This document shows, piece by piece, positions 6,982-63,127 of a stretch of 64,000 bases of DNA. The stretch is taken from sequence record MT764208.1; one strand, 5' to 3'. Both the position numbers and the translations under genes were made by a program. Source of the DNA: Escherichia phage JEP8. The notes below the pieces were generated by a model. The model saw nothing but the letters and a program-made list of their open reading frames with translations. It ran no database searches and had not been told where the DNA came from. Numbering within the stretch: the first letter of the stretch is position 1; every line of letters begins with the position of its first letter.

Positions 6982-8451
6982 CTATTCCCCATTACCATTA
7001 TACTTTCTTTGCTTAGTTATCCACACTCTAACCATCTCTACTGATTCACCGTCAGACGGATCAAGAGTTTTTCCTTTTTTCTTCATGCGATACTTAAATC
7101 CGTTAAATCTTGCATTCTCTTGCTCGTTAAAGTCGAACATCTTTTTAAATGATTTTCTCCCTTTACGCTCACCACATTCTAGCGGAATCATTCGGTCTGT
7201 TATTACATTGGCATTAGGTAGAAACGTTTTTAGATAATCCACCAACGCCCAATCAGGAACATATAGATTAACATTCTCCTTGCTCTCGTTGTCTCTCAGG
7301 TTACAACGCAAACATAATTGAAATGCTGGTTCCAGATAATCAGACACATGACGCGCTTTCAAAAACTCGTTTGTCGGGAGATCACAACTATTAGCAAGAC
7401 CTTTTAAAATATCAATCTCCCATCGTTGAGGGTTAAAGCTGAACATCACAGCAACATTTTTATGATGAATGTAAGAGTTAAGACCATAAGATCCGTAAGG
7501 TATCCGCTCACCAATACCATTTGTGCACGCTTCACGGTCCCGATTCACGGTATAAATGAAGTCATCGCCACATTCATTTTTAACCATATCAACAAGACGT
7601 TCAAAGGTATTGTTTGTTTCTGACTGGTGACGCGACCAGCGTTCGGAGTCAGTCATAAGGATGATGTTAACTCTATCTGTATTTTTATACTCTTTGAAAT
7701 ATAGTCTGGATTCTAGCGCACTCGGAACAAAATCGCAATTTGCATAGTATCGTAGATACTTCCCACTATATGTATCAAAGAGATTTGCACATGCTATCGT
7801 AACCTTTTTAAAGTCTCCCCACGTACCGTGTTTGTTATCGTTCAAGAAAACAATTTTCGACCCATTCTTCCGGTGTCCTTCGTTATGTTTTACCATAACG
7901 TTGATTTTCTTCTCTAATAACGCCTCATAAAGCCCTCTAAGAGAAGAATCGATCATATCAGTACCATCCTTTGCACTTTCTATCTTTTCTTTGATAGCGG
8001 CCTTCTCAGAGTCTTTTAGAACTAAGTTCTGTAGGCATTCCGATTCGTCGGCGATTGGTTCGCAATGCTTCGTGATAAGTTCAAGATTAGACTTAAACGG
8101 ATACTCATTAAATTCAACCAGTTGAGGAACTTCATCAATGTAAAGAGCATATTCACCAAACATTTTTGAACGTTCCATATTAGATAACGCTGTATGTGTA
8201 ATGAATATCACATCAGCACCGTCTTTAACTGATTGCATTATCGACGCTTGCACTGTCTTAAGGCTTCTTAGTCTTGTGCTATCGATCAAGACAGCACGAC
8301 CGCCCATTCTTTTAAACTTATTGTAAGATTGTTCACTTAAAACACGAGATGGCGAAGCAATAACCGCTTTTTCTTTTGTCTCTAGGACGTGGGAAAGTAT
8401 AGCATCAGTTTTCCCCGCCGCTGGCAATGCGATTAATGTTTCAATCTTCAT
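6982..8451 (-). CDS. P-loop NTPase of unknown function (helicase-like N-terminal motifs)
   Basis: 489 aa; Walker A-like ALPAAGKT, then IASPSR, Walker B-like ALYIDEV. Occupies the position immediately upstream of gene 55; no alpha-glucosyltransferase-like gene present. Confidence 0.6.
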   Translation of the reverse strand: MKIETLIALPAAGKTDAILSHVLETKEKAVIASPSRVLSEQSYNKFKRMGGRAVLIDSTRLRSLKTVQASIMQSVKDGADVIFITHTALSNMERSKMFGEYALYIDEVPQLVEFNEYPFKSNLELITKHCEPIADESECLQNLVLKDSEKAAIKEKIESAKDGTDMIDSSLRGLYEALLEKKINVMVKHNEGHRKNGSKIVFLNDNKHGTWGDFKKVTIACANLFDTYSGKYLRYYANCDFVPSALESRLYFKEYKNTDRVNIILMTDSERWSRHQSETNNTFERLVDMVKNECGDDFIYTVNRDREACTNGIGERIPYGSYGLNSYIHHKNVAVMFSFNPQRWEIDILKGLANSCDLPTNEFLKARHVSDYLEPAFQLCLRCNLRDNESKENVNLYVPDWALVDYLKTFLPNANVITDRMIPLECGERKGRKSFKKMFDFNEQENARFNGFKYRMKKKGKTLDPSDGESVEMVRVWITKQRKYNGNGE

Positions 8452-8738
8452 TAGAAACCCTTACGTCGTGCTTTCTGGCATTTCTTGATCATTTTATCAG
8501 AAATTTCGCGCTTAGGTGCAAGCTCTTTCACACCGAAAGCACTAATGCCAAATTCAGAGAGAATATATTCAACCAACAATTCACGCACACGCGCTTTACC
8601 GATATTCACGCCGTTATTTTTCAGATATGTCTGGCCTTCGACTTGCATCAGATCTAAATCAGCGTCGGTAATATTGATTTCTTCCATGCGCCCAAATCGA
8701 GAGTAAACCATGTGTGCGATTGCATTGTGTACTAACAT
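8451..8738 (-). CDS. Hypothetical protein
   Basis: ORF track 8451-8756 starts at TTG; moved to ATG after SD GAGGAA (MLVHNAIAHM...). Confidence 0.45.
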   Translation of the reverse strand: MLVHNAIAHMVYSRFGRMEEINITDADLDLMQVEGQTYLKNNGVNIGKARVRELLVEYILSEFGISAFGVKELAPKREISDKMIKKCQKARRKGF

Positions 8739-8759
8739 AATATATTCCTCACTCAAGAA

Positions 8760-8867
8760 TTACTTAATGATACTTACTTTACCAGATCCATGACAATGAG
8801 CGCAACACCCATCACCACGTAATCCTGTTCCGTTACAGTGTTTACACTTCTTCAACGGTAAAGTCAT
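8760..8867 (-). CDS. Mini-protein with two DnaJ-type CxxCxGxG zinc-finger repeats (35 aa)
   Basis: Below ORF-track cutoff. Translation MTLPLKKCKHCNGTGLRGDGCCAHCHGSGKVSIIK; repeats CKHCNGTG and CAHCHGSG. No clear SD. Confidence 0.35.
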   Translation of the reverse strand: MTLPLKKCKHCNGTGLRGDGCCAHCHGSGKVSIIK

Positions 8868-8907
8868 TATAGCAAATAAAGCAATAATGAACACCGAAAC
8901 TAAATTC

Positions 8908-9177
8908 TCAATAATCATAAATCGCCCTCAGTTCTTTATAGCCTCCAATGTGCTCGTTGTCAATGAATATCTGGGGGTATACAAACCGGAGGCTCTTTGA
9001 GTTCAGCCTCCCCGCCAGTTCTTCAATCATATCACGGTCGGGAATAATGTCAACCCCGACCTGCTTGAATACTGGTTTAAGTGTATACGGAATACCCAGA
9101 TCATCCAGTAGCTTCATTGCACTAATACAACCATAACAATGATAAGCCTCTTTAGGTATACCGTATATCTCGATCAT
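8908..9177 (-). CDS. nrdH: Glutaredoxin-like protein (NrdH-like)
   Basis: 89 aa; CxxC active site (CYGC) near N-terminus; located next to the nrdG/nrdD cluster. Confidence 0.7.
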   Translation of the reverse strand: MIEIYGIPKEAYHCYGCISAMKLLDDLGIPYTLKPVFKQVGVDIIPDRDMIEELAGRLNSKSLRFVYPQIFIDNEHIGGYKELRAIYDY

Positions 9178-9650
9178 TTCTCAGCCTTTAATCTTTCTAG
9201 TTCTTCTTCCAGTTCCTTGATCCGTTGGTCACGTTCAAAGTCACGCTGTAACTTAGTGGCGAATACTCGTTTAAACTGATTGTAATCATCGATTTTAAAC
9301 ACTTCTTCTTCGCCATAGCGACGCACAGAAACTTCGTAGTTATTGAAGAATTGTTGCATCATTGCTTCGGATGATAGTTCTGCTGATACTACTTTAAAAT
9401 ATTGATCTTCGGTAGGTGAAAACCAATTACAAGCATAAAGATAAACCTTTTCATTGTCTGGACACTGATAAGCCTTACCATCGATTTCAATCACAGAAAC
9501 ATATTCAGGTATACTGGATGAATCAATAGCTAAGACTTTAAACGCACGGTCCCCGATAAACTCGGAGATCACACGATTCGCATCACTGGTTGCAAATGCT
9601 TTACGCGCTTGTTCGTTTTTCCACTGATAGGTCATACCAACAACAAACAT
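9174..9650 (-). CDS. Paralogous family member A (GKTY/DGK/ERK-F-F module)
   Basis: 158 aa; GMTYQW, IEIDGKAY, EDQYFKVV; charged C-terminal tail (ELEEELERLKAEK). Confidence 0.55.
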   Translation of the reverse strand: MFVVGMTYQWKNEQARKAFATSDANRVISEFIGDRAFKVLAIDSSSIPEYVSVIEIDGKAYQCPDNEKVYLYACNWFSPTEDQYFKVVSAELSSEAMMQQFFNNYEVSVRRYGEEEVFKIDDYNQFKRVFATKLQRDFERDQRIKELEEELERLKAEK

Positions 9651-9651
9651 A

Positions 9652-10476
9652 TTACCAACCTCGCTCTTTACCGATCAAAAATTCAACTTCACGACGTTTA
9701 ATATCTTCTTGAAGGTCTTTAATCTTCTGGCGATCTTGCATGATTTCGTCCATCTTGTCAAGTGCTGTAATGAAATCATCGAAACGTTCAAAGGTTTTAC
9801 CTTCATTTGCTTCGCCAAATTTAACCATTGTCAGGCCGTAACGACTACTAAACAGACGTTTCAACTGTCCAACGATCTTAGAATCAGTAGTGACGACTTC
9901 CAATTCTTCTACTTCTTGAAAGAATTTTCTATCAGAATCAATAAACCAGCTAATTCCTTTATGGTCTTTATCTTCGGTTGCACTCATTAGAGTATGGTCT
10001 TTACCATCAATTTCAATTACATCAATTTGCCCACATGGACTAACCTTTTTAACAGTAAAAGGTCTATAATTTATTGCTCGTGCAATAACATAATTAAGGT
10101 TTGATACGTTTTCAGCATAATGGCAGAAGTCGGTCATAGCATTCGCATCTTTCCAAGTATAAGTTTTACCAACTTCCCATTTCTGGGGAACTTCTTCGAC
10201 TTCACGAAAGAATTTTCTATCGAATGGACTAAAGAAATATGTTGCAGTCCAAATGTCTTTTCCTGTAGCAGTTTTCGCCGTATGATAAACACCGTCTAGC
10301 TCTATTGCATCAATCCAACCGTTACCCTCGATCTCGATGATGGTAAATGGCTTGTCACCAATAGCTGCACTAATATCGCTGTTAAGTGGAGAAAGAACAC
10401 CTTCTCCGTTAGTAATAAACTCAGTTTTAGCGTTTTCGTCTTTCCAAGTGTAAGTTTTACCAATTTCCCATTTCAT
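9652..10476 (-). CDS. Paralogous family member B (two tandem modules)
   Basis: 274 aa; MKWEIGKTYTWKD...IELDGVYH...DRKFFREV then KWEVGKTYTWKD...IEIDGKDH...DRKFFQEV. Confidence 0.6.
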   Translation of the reverse strand: MKWEIGKTYTWKDENAKTEFITNGEGVLSPLNSDISAAIGDKPFTIIEIEGNGWIDAIELDGVYHTAKTATGKDIWTATYFFSPFDRKFFREVEEVPQKWEVGKTYTWKDANAMTDFCHYAENVSNLNYVIARAINYRPFTVKKVSPCGQIDVIEIDGKDHTLMSATEDKDHKGISWFIDSDRKFFQEVEELEVVTTDSKIVGQLKRLFSSRYGLTMVKFGEANEGKTFERFDDFITALDKMDEIMQDRQKIKDLQEDIKRREVEFLIGKERGW

Positions 10477-53643: not shown

Positions 53644-53976
53644 ATGGCACGCGTAAATATTAAATTGCATTACACAATGAATAAAGCTAAGTTCCCAATG
53701 CAAAAGCATTACTATGGTCTACGTGCACAAGATCCTAAACTCTATGGTACTCATTGGTTTTGTAAACATGATAACCAATGGCACACATACGAAGAAATGC
53801 ACGAGATGATGAAACAGGGTATTGAATTTAGTTATTCTAATTATGACCATCGTATAACTTGCATTCGAAAATTGAAACGATGGATTCGTAAGAATCCGCA
53901 ATTTAAAAACTTTGTGTTCTTTATGTCTCATGTTTATTTGGGGCATAGCGTTACCGTCACAGCAAAGGTTAAATAA
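53644..53976 (+). CDS. Hypothetical protein, cassette ORF 2
   Basis: 110 aa (MARVNI...), His/Tyr/Trp-rich; SD GAGGAA. Confidence 0.55.
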   Translation: MARVNIKLHYTMNKAKFPMQKHYYGLRAQDPKLYGTHWFCKHDNQWHTYEEMHEMMKQGIEFSYSNYDHRITCIRKLKRWIRKNPQFKNFVFFMSHVYLGHSVTVTAKVK

Positions 53977-54815
53977 TGGCACGACTTTCTAAACAAGAAC
54001 AAAAATTACACGACCGAGCAATGGAGTTGATTAATTCAGATCGCCCATTGACATATGAAGAAAAAGAATTTTGCTATAATAACTATCATGGCGATGGGCT
54101 AGGTGGTTCCGGTGCATTCTTTACCCCAGAAGGGCTTGCATGGGATTTTACCATCGATGCACATTGCACAGGAAAAGTATTGGATCTTTGTGCTGGGATC
54201 GGTCGCTTATCTTTTTGTATGTTACATCGTTGTAAGCCAGAAAAGATCGTATGCGTCGAACTCAATCCAGAATTTGCGCGGATTGGCAAGCGACTATTAC
54301 CGGAAGCAGAATGGATCACCAGCGATGTATTCGAATTTGAGTCAAACGAAAAATTCGATGTTGTAATTAGCAATCCACCTTTCGGGAAAATCAATACAAC
54401 CGACACAAAGGATGTATTTGAGTACACTGGCGGCGAATTTGAATTTAAGGTTATGACGCTAGGGCAAAAGTTTGCCGATGTTGGCTATTTTATTGTTCCT
54501 GTGGGTTCCGCTGGTTTTGCTTATTCCGGCAGACCTTATTATGACGGGACCATGAAGTCTAATAAATATCTAAAATGGAGCAAACAAACTGGTTTGGTGA
54601 CTTATGCCGGATGTGGGATCGATACATCAATCTATCGCGATGAATGGCACAGTACCAACGTTTTAACAGAAGTGGTTGAGGTTCGGTATTACGAGAAAGA
54701 AGCCGTAGAAGCGCCTAAATCGCGTCCTAACGAACAAATAGAAGAAAGTAAGGAGATTACCTTACCGAAACAGGAAAGCGAGTCTGGGACGCTCTCAGAT
54801 TTGTTTGACATTTAA
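53976..54815 (+). CDS. SAM-dependent amino-methyltransferase (putative DNA N6-adenine/N4-cytosine MTase), cassette ORF 3
   Basis: 279 aa (MARLSK...); motif I VLDLCAGIGRLS then motif IV NPPFG (gamma-class order); target cannot be resolved from sequence. Confidence 0.6.
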   Translation: MARLSKQEQKLHDRAMELINSDRPLTYEEKEFCYNNYHGDGLGGSGAFFTPEGLAWDFTIDAHCTGKVLDLCAGIGRLSFCMLHRCKPEKIVCVELNPEFARIGKRLLPEAEWITSDVFEFESNEKFDVVISNPPFGKINTTDTKDVFEYTGGEFEFKVMTLGQKFADVGYFIVPVGSAGFAYSGRPYYDGTMKSNKYLKWSKQTGLVTYAGCGIDTSIYRDEWHSTNVLTEVVEVRYYEKEAVEAPKSRPNEQIEESKEITLPKQESESGTLSDLFDI

Positions 54816-58201: not shown

Positions 58202-59602
58202 ATGGCAAACAATACTATTAACCATGTAAAAGACGATGCTCAATACGTCAAGTTTAACCCTGTAAATGATTGGCCTCAAAGCATTACCAACGTACAAGCG
58301 GCTTTAGCCGCTATTAATGGCTTTGCCGTAAATGGATTACCAGACGCTACGGAAGATACAGCCGGGATCGCTGCAATCGCAACTCAGGAAGAAGTAAACG
58401 ACGGGACAGTAGACAATAAGATCGTGACTCCAAAAACACTGGCTGTTAAAATGTCACGTCCAGATGCCACAAAAGAAGTAAAAGGCATTACCCGATTTGC
58501 CACGATGGAAGAATCGCTGCAAGAGAGCAACGAGAACATGGCAATCGGTCCAGACACACTAAACCATTACTTCACCACTAAAAAGGCGTCAGAGAGCGTT
58601 CAGGGGACTATTAAGATATGTTCTCTTGAGGCGGCAAAGATTGGCAGTGATGACACAATGGCAGTAACACCGAAAAAGATGCACACTGCCATTGCACAGA
58701 TTGTACCTGGATTAATTCCAGATCAAAACACAGCAACCGAAAGCGCACAGGGTTTAGTTCAGTTAGCAACCAATGCGCAAGTTTTACAAGGCCAGATTCG
58801 AGAAGGTTTTGCAATTAGTCCTTATGCATTTGCAAATGCTCGCGCCAATGAGAATCAGGCGGGTACTGTTAAGATCGCCAGTCAGTCACAGATGAATGCT
58901 GGTTCAGATGATACTGTAGTTGTTTCTGCTAAGAAGTTTGCAAGCACTAAGGCAACAACGTCTCAATACGGTATTGTTAAACTACGAGACACCGTAGGAA
59001 GTGAGGCTAACGCTGCACTATCAGCAAATGCTAAGGTTCTTCCTAGCACTGGCGGTACGGTAAGCGGAAACGTCTATAAAGGTTCAAACTCAGACGGCAA
59101 CCAGTTTGTTACTAAAAATGAATTAGCAAATCACGCAATGCCAATTGGTGGTATTATCCTTTCTGGATTCAATGCCGATCGAGGTGACTTTCTGATCTGT
59201 AATGGTCGTTCACTGAATAAAAATCAATATCCGCAATTATTTTCTGCGATTGGTTATACATTTGGTGGTTCAGGTGACAATTTTAACATTCCTGATATGC
59301 GCGGTTTAGTTGCTCGTGGTTGCGATCATGGAAGAAACCTTGATCCAGGTCGTCGATTTGGTTCTTATCAAGAAGATGCAATGCAGAGAATTACTGGTAA
59401 ATTCCCTGTAGCTGACCGCTGGCGCGGTTGGTATGGTGGCGCATTTACTGCCCAGCGCGGTCAATGGAGCACGAACTATAAAAACGGTGGTGGTGATGAT
59501 TGGGGTACTACTGTTAACTTTGACTCAGGAAGATCCGTAAGAACGGCTAACGAGACTCGCGTCAAGAGTCTGGCATTAAACTATATCATAAGGGTGCGCT
59601 AA
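58202..59602 (+). CDS. 12: Short tail fibre protein gp12
   Basis: 466 aa; N-terminus and C-terminal LNYIIRV resemble T4 gp12; shorter than T4 (527 aa). Confidence 0.85.
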   Translation: MANNTINHVKDDAQYVKFNPVNDWPQSITNVQAALAAINGFAVNGLPDATEDTAGIAAIATQEEVNDGTVDNKIVTPKTLAVKMSRPDATKEVKGITRFATMEESLQESNENMAIGPDTLNHYFTTKKASESVQGTIKICSLEAAKIGSDDTMAVTPKKMHTAIAQIVPGLIPDQNTATESAQGLVQLATNAQVLQGQIREGFAISPYAFANARANENQAGTVKIASQSQMNAGSDDTVVVSAKKFASTKATTSQYGIVKLRDTVGSEANAALSANAKVLPSTGGTVSGNVYKGSNSDGNQFVTKNELANHAMPIGGIILSGFNADRGDFLICNGRSLNKNQYPQLFSAIGYTFGGSGDNFNIPDMRGLVARGCDHGRNLDPGRRFGSYQEDAMQRITGKFPVADRWRGWYGGAFTAQRGQWSTNYKNGGGDDWGTTVNFDSGRSVRTANETRVKSLALNYIIRVR

Positions 59603-61371
59603 TGATTGAACAATTAAACATCCACGAGATCCCACATGTTGACGGTGTACCAAGCGAAGGACAGCACCGTATTAACTGGATCAAGAATGGCGAATGTTTA
59701 AGCGCAGCAACGACACAGACTGGCAATGACGGGACGCTTAACCGCGCCCCGGTTGCAATTCAAGAAAACGTTGCACGCGTAAACGAAAACGCAAAATCAA
59801 CCGTTGCTAAAGTTAACGAGGTTGTAACGGCGGTTAACGATATTAAAACAACTTTAGGGGTAATTTCTGACGGAAGTATCATTGATGTGGTTAACCAGAC
59901 TGTCGCAAAAGTTGAATCCGTCGAAGAGAACTTAGGAGAAACAGCAAGAACTCTACAAACAACGGTAGACGCTGTATCAGAACTTAACATCAAGATTGGT
60001 GATCGCCCCGCTGCCGATCCGAGCACAAGAACAATCTATGATGACATTTCTTTCATCAAACAAGAAATGGGTTCTTATCCTAACTTTAATATCAATGGTT
60101 CCCCTGATGCTGGCAGTTCCGGTTCTGGCATCAAATACCGAGTTATTCAGAATACCGCAGCATTAAATGACCACGGTCGCCGAATCATTCAGCTTGAAAA
60201 CGACTGGCAAGATTCTGACGTAGGCGAGTTAACAAGACAAGTTAACAAAATGCGCAGTGAGATCGGCGACACGTCTCTTGCAACACAAGAAAATGTGTAT
60301 GTTCGTCTCCGCACCAACGCAAGAAACATTGCTAACTTATCAAACGAAGTTCTAGAAGTCAAGAAAGCAATTTTGTTTGATTCAATCCCTGATATCGGGA
60401 CTAAAGTCACTACGCTGGGAACTAATTATGAACGTCTAAACAATGATGTTAATGGTGTAGATTCCGGTATTCGTCCTCGTCTTCTGGCTGTCGAGAATAA
60501 GATCGGAACGCCTCAATCGGCTGGAAGCATTGACTATCGATTAACCAACACAGAGCGAGAATTTTTAGATCTTAAACAGGTTGTTGGTGTAAGCGGTGCT
60601 GACGGTTTGCGCGGTGAAGTTGTTCGACTTTCCAATGAGATTGGCACTGACAGCGATCGACATACTCTAGCCGGACGTATTAAAGTTGTAGAAAACACTC
60701 AGGGTCGGTTAGAAGCAAGCGTACAGGACATGGAACAGCTTGTAGGTGATCGCGAATCAGGTTTGACCGCTGGCGTTATTAAACTATCAAGTGATATCTA
60801 TGGCGATGATGGTTCAGAAGATCCATTTACTCAGAAAGGCGTGATTAAAATCGTCAAAGAGCTACAAACATCTAACGGAAACAAAGTAGATGATGTACCT
60901 GATGACGGTTTCCATTATCTGCGTAAGCGCGGAGAATGGGTGCAAGTTGCATATGCTGCTGGAGCATTTAAAAATACCGCAGATATTACGGTTGAACTTG
61001 ACGAACAGGATGTTTATAAACCGATTCCGCTAAACGATATGACCGAAGAAGTTCCTGCGCGTGGAATGGTTAAGAGCGAATCTCTTGTTACGGTTAACGA
61101 CAAAGGCTTATTCCGTTGTGATTTCCGTTGTTCTGTAAATGCGGCACATAACGCTACTTTCGTAGTCGGTATTGCTAAAAATGGTCTGATTGTACATGAG
61201 GTACGAAATGGTCATTATGGAGCTGATGATTTAATTAGCTATTCTACCAGTGCTTTCCTAAATATTGAAAAGGGCGACCGGATCGATATTCGCATTAAGG
61301 GCGTATCCGAAGAAGCATTAGCGCAACAGCTACAAATTAAAGAGTTCCTCTTTGGGATTTCTCCGGTATAA
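59602..61371 (+). CDS. wac: Fibritin (whisker/neck fibre, wac) with extra C-terminal domain
   Basis: 589 aa; N-terminus IPHVDGVPSEGQHRINWIKNGE resembles T4 fibritin; coiled-coil middle; foldon-like DDGFHYLRKRGEWVQV followed by about 130 more residues. Confidence 0.8.
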   Translation: MIEQLNIHEIPHVDGVPSEGQHRINWIKNGECLSAATTQTGNDGTLNRAPVAIQENVARVNENAKSTVAKVNEVVTAVNDIKTTLGVISDGSIIDVVNQTVAKVESVEENLGETARTLQTTVDAVSELNIKIGDRPAADPSTRTIYDDISFIKQEMGSYPNFNINGSPDAGSSGSGIKYRVIQNTAALNDHGRRIIQLENDWQDSDVGELTRQVNKMRSEIGDTSLATQENVYVRLRTNARNIANLSNEVLEVKKAILFDSIPDIGTKVTTLGTNYERLNNDVNGVDSGIRPRLLAVENKIGTPQSAGSIDYRLTNTEREFLDLKQVVGVSGADGLRGEVVRLSNEIGTDSDRHTLAGRIKVVENTQGRLEASVQDMEQLVGDRESGLTAGVIKLSSDIYGDDGSEDPFTQKGVIKIVKELQTSNGNKVDDVPDDGFHYLRKRGEWVQVAYAAGAFKNTADITVELDEQDVYKPIPLNDMTEEVPARGMVKSESLVTVNDKGLFRCDFRCSVNAAHNATFVVGIAKNGLIVHEVRNGHYGADDLISYSTSAFLNIEKGDRIDIRIKGVSEEALAQQLQIKEFLFGISPV

Positions 61372-61380
61372 GAAATTAAA

Positions 61381-61403
61381 GGGGCGTTAAGCCCCTTTTT
61401 CGT
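61381..61403 (+). terminator. Rho-independent terminator after wac
   Basis: Hairpin ggggcgttaagcccc followed by TTTTTCGTTT. Confidence 0.6.
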
Positions 61404-61417
61404 TTATAGGTGATATT

Positions 61418-62350
61418 ATGTCAGGATATGTAACAAATAACCCAAGAGAATTAAAAGACGCTATTCTGCGTCGTTTAGGCGCACCAGTAATTAACGTAGA
61501 AGTAACAGAAGACCAGATTTACGATTGTATTCAGAGAGCACTAGAACTCTATGGGGAATATCATTTCGATGGTGTGAATAAAGGATATAAAGTATTTCGT
61601 GTTAGTGCAGAGCAAGCGCAACACGGGGTATTTGATTTAAGCGATTCTGGGGTATTCGCAGTAACTAAAATAATTAGAACAAACGTAGGTAGCGCGGCTA
61701 CGATGGATGGCACTGCCGTTTATCCGTGGTTTACTGACTTTCTGTTGGGTTTAGCTGGTGTAAATGGCGGTTTAGGATCTGGATGTAGTAAATTTTATGG
61801 TCCAAATGCAATGGGCGGTGATCTAGGATATTTCGAACAGCTTATGAGCTATCGAGCCACTATGCAAAATATGCTTAATCCACTGCCAGACTATTGGTAT
61901 AATAGCGCAAACGGACAACTTAAGATTACAGGAAACTTCCGAGAAGGTGATCTCATTGTTGTTGAATTATATGTTAAAAGCTATGTAGACGTTCCTGATA
62001 TGATCGGCGCGGTTGCTGGTTATGCTCATGCTGGAGGATGTTCTACCGCTGGCGGGATTAGCGCCGTTTATGATAATCCAACTGCTGGTTTAAGCGGGAT
62101 TGTTGCTGGCATGGGACCGATCAGTGAGAACAAGCAGGGCGCATATAATAACCGTTGGGTTAAAGACATGGCAACCGCTTTCACTAAGGAGGTGTGGGGG
62201 TCCATCATGGCTAAACATCAAGGTCTGCAATTACCAGGTGGTGTCACTGTTGATGGTATCCGAATCATTGAAGAAGCACGCGCCGACATTGAGAAATTGC
62301 GACAAGAACTAGAATTATTAGATCCTCCGTTCGGCATCCTCATGATTTGA
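61418..62350 (+). CDS. 13: Neck protein gp13
   Basis: 310 aa (T4 gp13 309 aa); SD GGTGA; position before gp14. Confidence 0.8.
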
Positions 62351-62356
62351 TTTATT

Positions 62357-62372
62357 GGGGGAGTATTCCCCC
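62357..62372 (+). promoter_or_regulatory. Intercistronic stem-loop between gp13 and gp14
   Basis: GGGGG-agtatt-CCCCC hairpin immediately upstream of the gp14 SD (GGAG); no strong U-tract. Confidence 0.35.
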
Positions 62373-62386
62373 ATTTGGAGTAACAT

Positions 62387-63127
62387 ATGTTTAACAACAC
62401 TCTTTTTGCTCGCCTTGAATCGCAAAAGGATTATGAGAATACACGACAAACAGAGATTCTTAATCCTTATGTGAACTTTCACAAATATACAAATACTCAG
62501 ACGTTAGCCGACGTTATGGTCGCCGAAGCTATACAGATGCGAGGTGTAGAATTATATTACATCCCTCGTGAATTTGTCAAGCCAGATATGATCTTTGGTG
62601 AGGATGTTCAAAGCAAATTTACTAAAGCATGGAAATTTGCGGCTTATATTAACTCATTTGATGGGTATGAAGGAGCGGGTAATTTCTTCTCTAGTTTCGG
62701 GTATCAAGCTAATGACGAACTAACTTTTACGGTTAACCCCAACCTATTCAAACATCAAGTAGATGATCAAGAGCCAAAATCAGGTGACTTGATTTATATT
62801 CCAATGAGTAATGATCTATTTGAAATTAATTACGTCGAGCCATATCAGCCGTTTTTTCAGGCTGGCAAAAATGCCATGCGTAAAATTATTGCAGAGAAAT
62901 TCGTGTATAGCGGCGAGGAATTGCGACCAGAATTACAACGCAATGAGGGCATTAATGTTGATGAGTTCGCAGATCTGGATCTTGCACCGATCACTAATCT
63001 GGACGGGTTAACAGATATCAACTTAGATCAGTACAAAGAAGATAAGCAATTCAGAAGCGAAGGACAAGATTTTATTGATCCGTTTGATCCTATTAATGGC
63101 ACTGGTTCACCTTTGGCTAATTTTTGA
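62387..63127 (+). CDS. 14: Neck protein gp14
   Basis: 246 aa (T4 gp14 256 aa); position between gp13 and gp15. Confidence 0.8.

What the first reader, a model, noticed from the sequence alone, without database searches (positions are those of the whole stretch)
59602..61371. Fibritin with an internal foldon-like motif and an extra C-terminal C1q/TNF-like domain
The N-terminus and coiled-coil body match fibritin, but the protein is about 100 aa longer than T4 wac. After a foldon-like segment (DDGFHYLRKRGEWVQV) comes a roughly 130-aa tail with a beta-rich pattern (GLFRCDFRCSVNAAHNATFVVGIAKNG...GDRIDIRIKG) reminiscent of C1q/TNF jelly-roll domains. This could add a ligand-binding function to the whiskers.
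Basis: partly seen in the sequence, partly recalled or inferred. Interest (0 to 1): 0.55.

Follow-up and report, generated by a model that had tools for sequence, protein, structure and literature searches.

The report
RB49-type whisker protein with TNF-like knob
This is the neck-whisker protein (fibritin) of an RB49-like E. coli phage. It keeps the T4-style trimerising "foldon" and then ends in an extra, confidently predicted C1q/TNF-type globular knob. The extension has been in the literature since 2005, so only the name of its fold appears to be new.

Summary
ORF 59602-61371 (+) encodes a 589-aa protein lying between gp12 and gp13. It aligns to T4 fibritin over residues 6-431 (E 9e-50), carries a foldon-like motif at aa 429-451, and ends in a 138-aa all-beta domain (aa 452-589).

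The gene is not new. It is 99.7% identical to phage ECD7 wac and 95.5% identical to RB49 wac. The "RB49-type" expanded fibritin C-terminus was described by Letarov and colleagues, who report it is needed for trimer folding.

New details found here:
- The foldon is retained rather than replaced.
- The knob core (aa 476-577) is a JSE-type allele patched into an RB49-type gene.
- The knob is under purifying selection (dN/dS about 0.17).
- Its alleles do not co-vary with gp36 or gp37.
- The knob family and the long RB49-type gp36 occur in the same phage groups.

A ligand-binding role remains untested. The most likely function is a trimerisation cap plus a docking head at the whisker tip.

The parts
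59602..61371 (+). wac (fibritin, neck whisker/collar fibre) CDS, 589 aa plus stop. Its start overlaps the last base of gp12.
   Evidence: 99.7% nt identity to ECD7 wac and 95.5% to RB49 wac. PHROG 1056 'fibritin neck whisker' E 8.7e-186.
59602..59751 (+). Conserved N-terminal domain (aa 1-50). In T4 this part attaches the fibre to the neck.
   Evidence: Aligns to T4 fibritin N-terminal fragments 2ibl/1ox3, E about 2e-15. Role taken from PMC3797505.
59752..60885 (+). Segmented coiled-coil shaft (aa 51-428). It includes aa ~357-382, which align to T4 helix alpha11, the part that contacts the gp35 kneecap in T4.
   Evidence: HMMER alignment to T4 fibritin 5-435, E 9e-50. The T4 alpha11/kneecap contact comes from bioRxiv 10.64898/2026.03.06.709160. 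The equivalence to this protein is inferred.
60886..60954 (+). Internal foldon-like beta-hairpin motif (aa 429-451, VDDVPDDGFHYLRKRGEWVQVAY).
   Evidence: Last part of the Pfam Fibritin_C match 368-451. Aligned to T4 456-480. Strands at aa 438-442 and 445-450 in the model, with low monomer pLDDT of 51-66.
60955..61368 (+). C-terminal C1q/TNF-like jelly-roll domain, the 'knob' (aa 452-589).
61029..61330 (+). Recombinant patch (aa 476-577, the jelly-roll core). It is JSE/KFS-EC/MIZ4-type sequence inside an otherwise RB49-type gp12-wac-gp13 region.
   Evidence: Informative sites: 119 of 121 RB49-type up to aa 475, then 69 of 70 JSE-type, then 26 of 26 RB49-type again in gp13.
61378..61405 (+). 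Intrinsic-terminator-like hairpin plus T-run, 7 nt after the wac stop codon.
   Evidence: sequence. The same element is annotated as a terminator in phages G2248 and Makalu_003.

Best explanation
This is the fibritin (gpwac) of a Krischvirus (RB49-like) phage. It is a trimeric coiled-coil fibre attached to the neck by its N-terminus. It keeps a T4-type foldon hairpin at aa 429-451 and then ends in a 138-aa C1q/TNF-type jelly-roll domain.

Proposed mechanism:
1. The three C-terminal domains associate into a bell-shaped trimeric knob, as C1q, TNF, BclA and collagen NC1 domains do.
2. Together with the foldon hairpin, the knob sets the chain register and nucleates folding of the coiled coil from the C-terminal end.
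3. In the virion the knob forms a globular head at the free tip of each whisker or collar fibre, beyond the shaft segment that in T4 contacts the long-tail-fibre kneecap.
4. There it supplies an extra docking surface for the phage's own long tail fibre. The best candidate partner is the enlarged RB49-type gp36 next to the knee. This would help fibre attachment and retraction.

Shown here: gene identity, domain layout, the predicted fold, purifying selection and allele mosaicism. Taken from the literature: the C-terminal region is required for trimer folding. Inferred: the trimeric state of the knob, its position at the tip, and the tail-fibre partner.
For: - Identity and layout.
- Folding role: Letarov & Krisch state that only T4 and JS98 fibritins trimerise with the small foldon alone, and that RB49 fibritin needs sequences in its expanded C-terminal domain (PMC3797505). 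C1q/NC1/BclA-type heads nucleating trimeric stalks is established knowledge of those families.
- Constraint: dN/dS is 0.17-0.18 between allele lineages. The C-terminal strands (aa 544-589) are almost invariant across Krischvirus. That fits a conserved trimer core.
- Tail-fibre link, part 1: in T4 the whisker binds the gp35 kneecap and collar fibritins clamp gp37.
- Tail-fibre link, part 2: RB49-type gp36 is 496 aa, and its C-terminal half has near-full-length homologues (94% coverage or more) only in Krischvirus, Serratia phages WSPA/4S/92A1 and Muldoon/PS2, and Cronobacter VP8.
- Tail-fibre link, part 3: of these groups, 92A1 has a homologous knob (hhalign 95%, E 2e-8) and WSPA a weaker tblastn match. 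Muldoon fibritin has the same foldon-plus-135-aa layout. This agrees with the wac/gp36 covariance reported by Letarov et al. 2005, which I could not read and know only through citations and from memory.
Against: - No multimer model could be made, so the trimeric knob is inferred.
- Within the genus the knob alleles do not track the tail fibre. ECD7 and RB49/Phi1 share 99.8-100% identical gp36 and near-identical gp35, yet their knobs are only about 82% identical.
- gp37 aa 151-350 varies independently of the knob.
- In T4 the resolved whisker-kneecap contact is helix alpha11 (aa 361-386), not the C-terminal tip. A tip contact is therefore not established even for T4.
- The co-occurrence with long gp36 could simply reflect shared ancestry of these phage groups.
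Confidence: 0.6

Rival explanations
1. Accessory adhesin or lectin. The knob binds a host-surface or environmental glycan. The whiskers would then add reversible pre-adsorption, or sense surroundings directly, as tail-fibre tips with the same fold do.
For: - The closest structural neighbours include receptor-binding fibre tips: cyanophage A-1(L) gp33, whose stem-CBD construct binds host cells, cyanophage A4 tail fibre, TM4 gp23 receptor-binding domain, lactococcal phage 1358 RBP bound to GlcNAc, PRD1 P5, and a Photorhabdus TNF-like lectin.
- The jelly-roll core alone has been exchanged between lineages.
- Variable positions are more frequent outside strands (25 of 54) than in strands (25 of 80).
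- Letarov & Krisch raise host recognition as a possible role for some fibritin types.
Against: - dN/dS is 0.17-0.42 with no sign of hypervariability. The knob is 80-100% identical across 57 phages, while gp37 falls to about 43% in a 200-aa segment over the same set.
- Host range in RB49-like phages maps to gp38 point mutations, and those phages share the RB49-type knob.
- Knob alleles do not co-vary with gp37.
- Whisker tips sit far from the baseplate.
Confidence: 0.2
2. Pure folding cap. The knob is only a larger trimerisation and registration module that took over from a weakened foldon. It has no binding partner, so it is an ordinary structural extension.
For: - Published biochemistry reports that RB49 fibritin needs the expanded C-terminus to trimerise.
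- There is strong purifying selection on the C-terminal strands.
- No allele-level co-variation was found with any tail-fibre protein tested.
- The patch exchange works on an RB49-type shaft, so no co-adaptation is evident.
Against: - A 27-aa foldon is sufficient in T4, so a 138-aa domain is more than folding needs.
- The foldon motif is itself conserved alongside the knob: 73-100% identity in aa 426-455 in Krischvirus homologues sharing at least 62% overall identity.
- The knob family occurs in the same phage groups as the enlarged gp36.
Confidence: 0.15
3. The model resembles TNF/C1q only because it is a generic jelly roll (capsid-like or CBM-like) and is not related to that superfamily. Alternatively, the AF2 model is wrong because the alignment is shallow (21 rows, mostly close relatives).
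For: - No PDB sequence hit with the single sequence or with a profile.
- Pfam C1q and TNF are not hit, and BclA_C is below its cut-off.
- The five models range from pLDDT 67.9 to 84.9.
Against: - Foldseek, a second method, agrees on PDB and BFVD.
- The sub-threshold BclA_C match covers nearly the whole domain in two divergent homologues.
- The domain sits at the C-terminal end of a trimeric stalk, as in those families.
Confidence: 0.05

Closest known systems
RB49-type fibritin (gpwac of phages RB49, ECD7, JSE; GenBank AAP04366.2, ASJ80238.1)
   Same: Same gene, same 589-aa length and same position between gp12 and gp13. 99.7% nt identity to ECD7 and 95.5% to RB49. Residues 1-455 are 97-100% identical to the RB49-like cluster P0003. 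The expanded C-terminal domain is already listed as one of about eight fibritin C-terminal types.
   Different: The knob core (aa 476-577) is the JSE/KFS-EC-type allele, about 82% aa identity to RB49 over aa 448-589. The window matches no deposited genome better than about 98% over 25 kb. It also lacks the segC gene that ECD7 carries between gp13 and gp14.
T4 fibritin (gpwac; PDB 1AA0, 2BSG, 3J2O) and its foldon
   Same: N-terminal neck-binding domain, segmented coiled coil (aligned 6-431, E 9e-50), and the foldon signature P..DG..Y.RK.GEWV.
   Different: T4 ends with the foldon at residue 487, while this protein continues for 138 aa. Published work says the foldon-like motif alone does not fold RB49 fibritin. 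Only 1 of the 4 T4 alpha11 residues reported to face the kneecap is identical in the alignment.
BclA C-terminal domain, ExsFA/BxpB and the C1q/TNF superfamily (gC1q, Caprin-2, cerebellin, collagen VIII/X NC1, TNF ligands)
   Different: The stalk is an alpha-helical coiled coil plus foldon, not collagen. Sequence identity is 9-20%, all Pfam matches are below curated cut-offs, and the trimer was not modelled. No calcium or ligand site was assessed.
Phage fibre tips with TNF-like heads: cyanophage A-1(L) gp33 stem-CBD (8KE9), cyanophage A4 tail fibre (9K09), Sf6/HS1 tail-needle knob (3RWN), PRD1 P5, TM4 gp23, lactococcal 1358 RBP
   Same: A trimeric helical or fibrous stalk ending in a TNF-type head. 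The two cyanophage hits align over 137 residues, more than the bare C1q domains. P22-like needles likewise come with alternative tips, one of them a TNF-like knob.
   Different: Those heads sit on tail fibres, needles or vertex spikes that meet the host. This one sits on neck whiskers and collar fibres, whose known partners in T4 are the phage's own tail fibres.

Membership tests
Fibritin / gpwac (T4-like neck whisker protein) | Conserved ~50-aa N-terminal neck-attachment domain | tested here: met
   Residues 7-84 align to T4 fibritin N-terminal fragments 2ibl/1ox3, E about 2e-15.
Fibritin / gpwac (T4-like neck whisker protein) | Long segmented coiled-coil shaft homologous to T4 fibritin | tested here: met
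   Residues 6-431 align to T4 5-435, E 9e-50. PHROG 1056 match is full length, E 8.7e-186. Heptad periodicity was not analysed separately.
Fibritin / gpwac (T4-like neck whisker protein) | Fibritin_C region including the foldon signature | tested here: met
   PF07921 E 3.3e-30, 104.5 bits against a cut-off of 21, aa 368-451 covering profile positions 2-92 of 93.
Fibritin / gpwac (T4-like neck whisker protein) | Gene position between gp12 (short tail fibre) and gp13 (neck protein) | tested here: met
Foldon as an autonomous trimerisation domain | The ~27-aa hairpin alone is sufficient to trimerise and fold the fibre | not testable with these tools
   Sequence signature present. The literature says the foldon alone is not sufficient for RB49 fibritin (PMC3797505). 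The monomer model gives low confidence here (pLDDT 51-66).
RB49-type fibritin C-terminal domain (Letarov classification) | Significant sequence homology of the C-terminal domain to RB49 gpwac | tested here: met
   tblastn of aa 448-589 gives 82.4% identity to RB49, E 1e-73, and hits all 57 Krischvirus records. An exhaustive HMMER search finds only this family plus two outliers.
C1q/TNF-like jelly-roll superfamily | About 130-150-aa two-sheet jelly-roll beta sandwich with TNF/C1q topology | tested here: met
C1q/TNF-like jelly-roll superfamily | Homotrimeric bell-shaped head with N- and C-termini at the base | not testable with these tools
   Only monomer prediction is offered. The trimer is inferred from the trimeric coiled coil and foldon directly upstream.
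C1q/TNF-like jelly-roll superfamily | Sequence-profile membership (Pfam C1q, TNF or BclA_C at gathering score) | tested here: not met
   BclA_C scores 18.6 bits (E 0.0018) here and 27.9 bits (E 2.4e-6) in P0018, against a cut-off of 38. C1q and TNF were not reported. No PDB sequence hit with the single sequence or with a profile.
Phage receptor-binding (adhesin) tip domain | Elevated variability or diversifying selection, and association with host range | tested here: not met
   dN/dS 0.17-0.42. Knob 80-100% identical across the genus, while gp37 drops to about 43% in a 200-aa segment. Host range maps to gp38.
Phage receptor-binding (adhesin) tip domain | Direct binding to a host surface ligand | not testable with these tools
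   Needs binding assays with a trimeric stem-knob construct.

The most novel reading that the evidence does not exclude
The knob at the whisker tip is a lectin-like sensor. It would bind a host or environmental glycan (or another small ligand, as the Sf6/HS1 knobs bind glutamate). Ligand occupancy would compete with, or release, the hold of the whiskers on the retracted long tail fibres. That would give RB49-like phages a ligand-gated rather than purely ionic or pH-gated switch for fibre deployment. The exchange of the jelly-roll core between lineages would then reflect switching of the sensed ligand.
Probability: 0.12. Interest if true: 0.65.

Novelty: already known. Interest (0 to 1): 0.3.

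Why it matters
Fibritin controls when T4-type phages deploy their long tail fibres, and its foldon is widely used as an engineering tag. Three points add to the published picture of "alien sequences replacing" the C-terminus:
- RB49-type fibritin keeps the foldon.
- A C1q/TNF-type head follows it.
- The core of that head is still being exchanged between co-circulating lineages.

This gives a concrete structural hypothesis for how RB49-like whiskers fold and what they might touch. These phages are candidates for therapy, so the control of their adsorption has practical interest. The gene, its extension and its role in folding are already described, and TNF-like heads on phage fibres are common. 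The result is therefore a refinement rather than a discovery.

Tried and rejected
1. Sequence route to the fold. phmmer of aa 456-589 and an 11-sequence profile against PDB sequences found nothing. Pfam gave only sub-threshold BclA_C.

2. Exhaustive HMMER of aa 448-589 against 1.84 billion representatives returned only P0003, P0019 and P0024. P0024 is a six-fold repeat protein whose score is summed over repeats at 22% identity, so I treated it as uninformative.

3. The word-indexed search with the knob alone gave only two 110-aa "proteins". These are artefacts of a 100-N scaffold gap inside wac, not stand-alone knobs.

4. The afdb50 fold library was unavailable.

5. Allele-level co-variation as a route to the binding partner was negative for all four tail-fibre proteins:
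   - gp36 is 99.8-100% identical between phages with different knob alleles.
   - gp35 and gp34 show no matching pattern.
   - A three-genome hint for gp37 aa 151-350 disappeared over about 50 genomes: Phi1 is 99.5% in that segment with an 82% knob, and PHB13 is 63% with a 100% knob.

6. Homing-endonuclease co-conversion as the cause of the knob patch. The JSE-type tract (aa 476-577) is separated from the gp13/gp14 endonuclease site by RB49-type sequence, so this is not supported.

7. tblastn with the distant metagenomic knobs P0019 and P0020 found no cultured phages beyond Krischvirus.

8. I considered submitting a linker-joined three-copy construct to approximate a trimer model.

9. Letarov et al. 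2005 (PMC545706) could not be read. What it says about RB49 is taken from later papers by the same authors and, for the wac/gp36 covariance, from memory.
Full report
**What is there.** The ORF at 59602-61371 (+) is real and encodes 589 aa. It lies in the T4-type late-gene order gp10, gp11, gp12, wac, gp13, gp14, gp15. Its ATG overlaps the last base of gp12. A terminator-like hairpin at 61378-61398 follows the stop codon. By megablast the gene is 99.7% identical to wac of Escherichia phage ECD7 and 95.5% identical to wac of RB49. It is present at full length in 57 Krischvirus records, mostly annotated "fibritin neck whiskers". The window as a whole matches no deposited genome better than about 98% over 25 kb, so it is an undeposited RB49-like phage.

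**Checking the observation.**
- T4 fibritin aligns to residues 6-431 (E 9e-50), and the N-terminal fragments align with E about 2e-15.
- Pfam Fibritin_C covers aa 368-451 almost end to end (E 3.3e-30).
HMMER aligns aa 425-449 to T4 456-480, the foldon, with P, DG, Y, RK and GEWV conserved.
- After it come 138 residues (452-589) with no counterpart in T4. This accounts for the 102-aa length difference.

**The fold of the tail.** I aligned aa 425-589 with 20 database homologues ranging from 88% down to 16% identity and predicted the structure. Mean pLDDT is 84.9 and pTM 0.77. Ten-residue blocks score 85-96 from model residue 31 onward, and the domain is all-beta. The foldon hairpin is only 51-66, as expected for an obligate trimer modelled as a monomer.

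- then EDA, TL1A, cerebellin, C1q A/C, collagen VIII NC1, many TNF ligands, PRD1 P5, TM4 gp23, lactococcal phage 1358 RBP and the Sf6 needle knob

Foldseek on PDB independently returns ExsFA/BxpB, C1QL, collagen X NC1, BclA and the phi812 spike knob. On viral models it returns many phage "C1q domain" and collagen-repeat proteins.

By sequence the link is weak. There are no PDB hits with the single sequence or with a profile. Pfam gives only sub-threshold BclA_C matches that nevertheless span the domain: 18.6 bits here and 27.9 bits in P0018, against a cut-off of 38. I therefore accept "C1q/TNF-like jelly roll" as a fold assignment on a predicted model. It is not demonstrated family membership by sequence.

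**What is already known.** Letarov & Krisch (PMC3797505) list RB49 as one of about eight fibritin C-terminal types. They state that only T4 and JS98 fibritins fold using the small foldon alone, and that RB49 fibritin needs sequences in its expanded C-terminal domain. Efimov et al. [quoted passage not shown] The primary 2005 paper could not be read. Full-text searches combining fibritin with C1q or TNF-like terms found no paper assigning this fold to a fibritin. The extension and its folding role are therefore known. The fold name, and the fact that the foldon is retained rather than replaced, seem to be refinements.

**Distribution.**
- An exhaustive HMMER search with aa 448-589 found only three representative clusters: the RB49-like one, a 591-aa metagenomic fibritin (P0019, 32% identity), and a repeat protein that I discount.
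- Among cultured phages, tblastn finds the knob in 57 Krischvirus records and weakly in Serratia phages 92A1 and WSPA.
- 92A1 is confirmed by profile comparison (95% probability, E 2e-8).
- Serratia phage Muldoon fibritin (595 aa) has the same foldon-plus-135-aa beta-rich layout. Its similarity is only marginal (E 0.0018; sequence).

**Evolution of the knob.** Region-by-region identity showed a sharp step. The RB49-like cluster P0003 is 97-100% identical over aa 1-455 but 81% identical over aa 456-589. At the DNA level, informative sites show three blocks:
- RB49-type through gp12 and wac up to aa 475 (119 of 121 sites)
- JSE/KFS-EC/MIZ4-type from aa 476 to 577 (69 of 70 sites)
- RB49-type again in gp13 (26 of 26 sites)

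This is a patch of about 0.3 kb that replaces just the jelly-roll core. A metagenomic scaffold has its assembly gap at this same junction, which suggests that the two alleles co-occur.

Selection is purifying. dN/dS is 0.17-0.18 for the knob between allele lineages, against 0.08-0.09 for the shaft. It is 0.37-0.42 between close pairs. Across the genus the knob (77-87% identity) is no more variable than the shaft (57-80% in the more distant members). Strands at aa 544-589 are almost invariant, and variable positions concentrate at aa 460-482 and 507-535.

**Looking for a partner.** In T4, a 2026 preprint resolves whisker helix alpha11 (aa 361-386) in the groove of the gp35 kneecap, and collar fibritins clamping gp37. 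By alignment, alpha11 corresponds to about aa 357-382 here. The knob would therefore lie roughly 70 residues plus the foldon beyond that contact.

At the family level the evidence favours a gp36 link. RB49-type gp36 is 496 aa (T4 gp36 is about 221 aa, from my own knowledge). Its C-terminal half has near-full-length homologues (94% coverage or more) only in Krischvirus, Serratia phages WSPA/4S/92A1 and Muldoon/PS2, and Cronobacter VP8. Of these groups, 92A1 and WSPA have detectable knobs and Muldoon has the same fibritin layout. The fibritins of 4S, PS2 and VP8 were not examined. This agrees with the wac/gp36 covariance reported by Letarov and colleagues.

At the allele level the evidence is negative:
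- ECD7-group and RB49-group phages differ by 18% in the knob but have 99.8-100% identical gp36 and near-identical gp35.
- A three-genome hint for gp37 aa 151-350 vanished across about 50 genomes.

Family-level co-occurrence is thus supported and fine-scale co-adaptation is not. The co-occurrence could be shared descent.

**Mechanism.** The best-supported reading is a trimeric C1q/TNF-type cap. Together with the retained foldon it nucleates and registers the coiled coil. That role is supported by published biochemistry and by analogy with BclA and collagen NC1 heads. The cap also forms a globular head at the free fibre tip that most probably docks on the phage's own long tail fibre.

For example, the A-1(L) gp33 stem-CBD construct binds host cells. 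It is weakened by three findings:
- purifying selection on the knob
- independence of the knob alleles from gp37
- host range in RB49-like phages mapping to gp38

A pure folding-cap reading and a "wrong or generic jelly roll" reading are less likely.

**Verdict.** The functional suggestion is untested. The feature itself is already described in the literature and annotated in public genomes. Interest is modest (0.3). What remains worthwhile is experimental: trimer modelling, cryo-EM of RB49-like necks, truncation and allele-swap genetics, and binding assays.

Noticed in passing
window 61372-62400, compared with L001 (ECD7) 7771-10145, L006-L008: The window has only a 36-nt spacer between gp13 (61418-62350) and gp14 (62387-63127). 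ECD7 carries a segC homing endonuclease there, KFS-EC and MIZ4 carry an 816-nt ORF (a homing endonuclease in MIZ4), and JSE has one after gp14. This is a polymorphic endonuclease site next to wac. The knob patch is not contiguous with it.
   Followed up: partly
window 53976-54815 (+): A 279-aa SAM-dependent methyltransferase ORF (Pfam MTS E 1e-9, also Eco57I/N6_Mtase-like matches) lies in the baseplate gene cluster just upstream of gp9. In ECD7 it is annotated 'prmC release factor glutamine methyltransferase'. Its target is unknown.
   Followed up: partly
L014 3829-3928 (metagenome scaffold TONG22-1 scaffold_107): A 100-N scaffold gap with duplicated flanks sits inside wac at aa ~473, exactly at the RB49-type/JSE-type junction. 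It created the spurious 110-aa proteins P0001 and P0002. It probably reflects two knob alleles co-existing in one sample.
   Followed up: yes
window 60652-60876 (wac aa 351-425): This is the most divergent shaft segment within Krischvirus (56-64% identity in several clusters against 72-80% elsewhere). It contains the stretch that aligns to T4 helix alpha11, which binds the gp35 kneecap. Yet gp35 is 92-100% identical per 50-aa window among ECD7, RB49 and JSE.
   Followed up: no
L002 28373-31315, L003, L004 (gp37 of ECD7, RB49, JSE): gp37 is strongly mosaic. 50-aa windows range from 34% to 98% identity between these three phages, with different segments pairing different phages. In JSE the last ~100 aa of gp36 also diverge (80-84%).
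   Followed up: partly
BFVD hit A0A1J0MHA5 (Klebsiella phage KPV15): A 159-aa uncharacterised protein of a T4-like Klebsiella phage matches the foldon-plus-knob model over its whole length (TM 0.75, 24% identity). It may be a stand-alone small trimeric knob protein.
   Followed up: no
window 61378-61405 (+): A strong terminator-like hairpin (AAAGGGGCGTTAAGCCCCTTT followed by a T-run) sits immediately after wac. It would separate wac from the gp13 transcription unit.
   Followed up: partly
L006-L009 1-900 (gp12 of JSE, KFS-EC, MIZ4, G2248) versus window 58443-59340: In the ungapped comparison the 5' two-thirds of gp12 in the JSE-like lineage shows only 21-49% nt identity to the window, while RB49-like phages are 96-100% identical. 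The cause is either an indel offset or a different short-tail-fibre type linked to the divergent wac shaft. This was not resolved.
   Followed up: no
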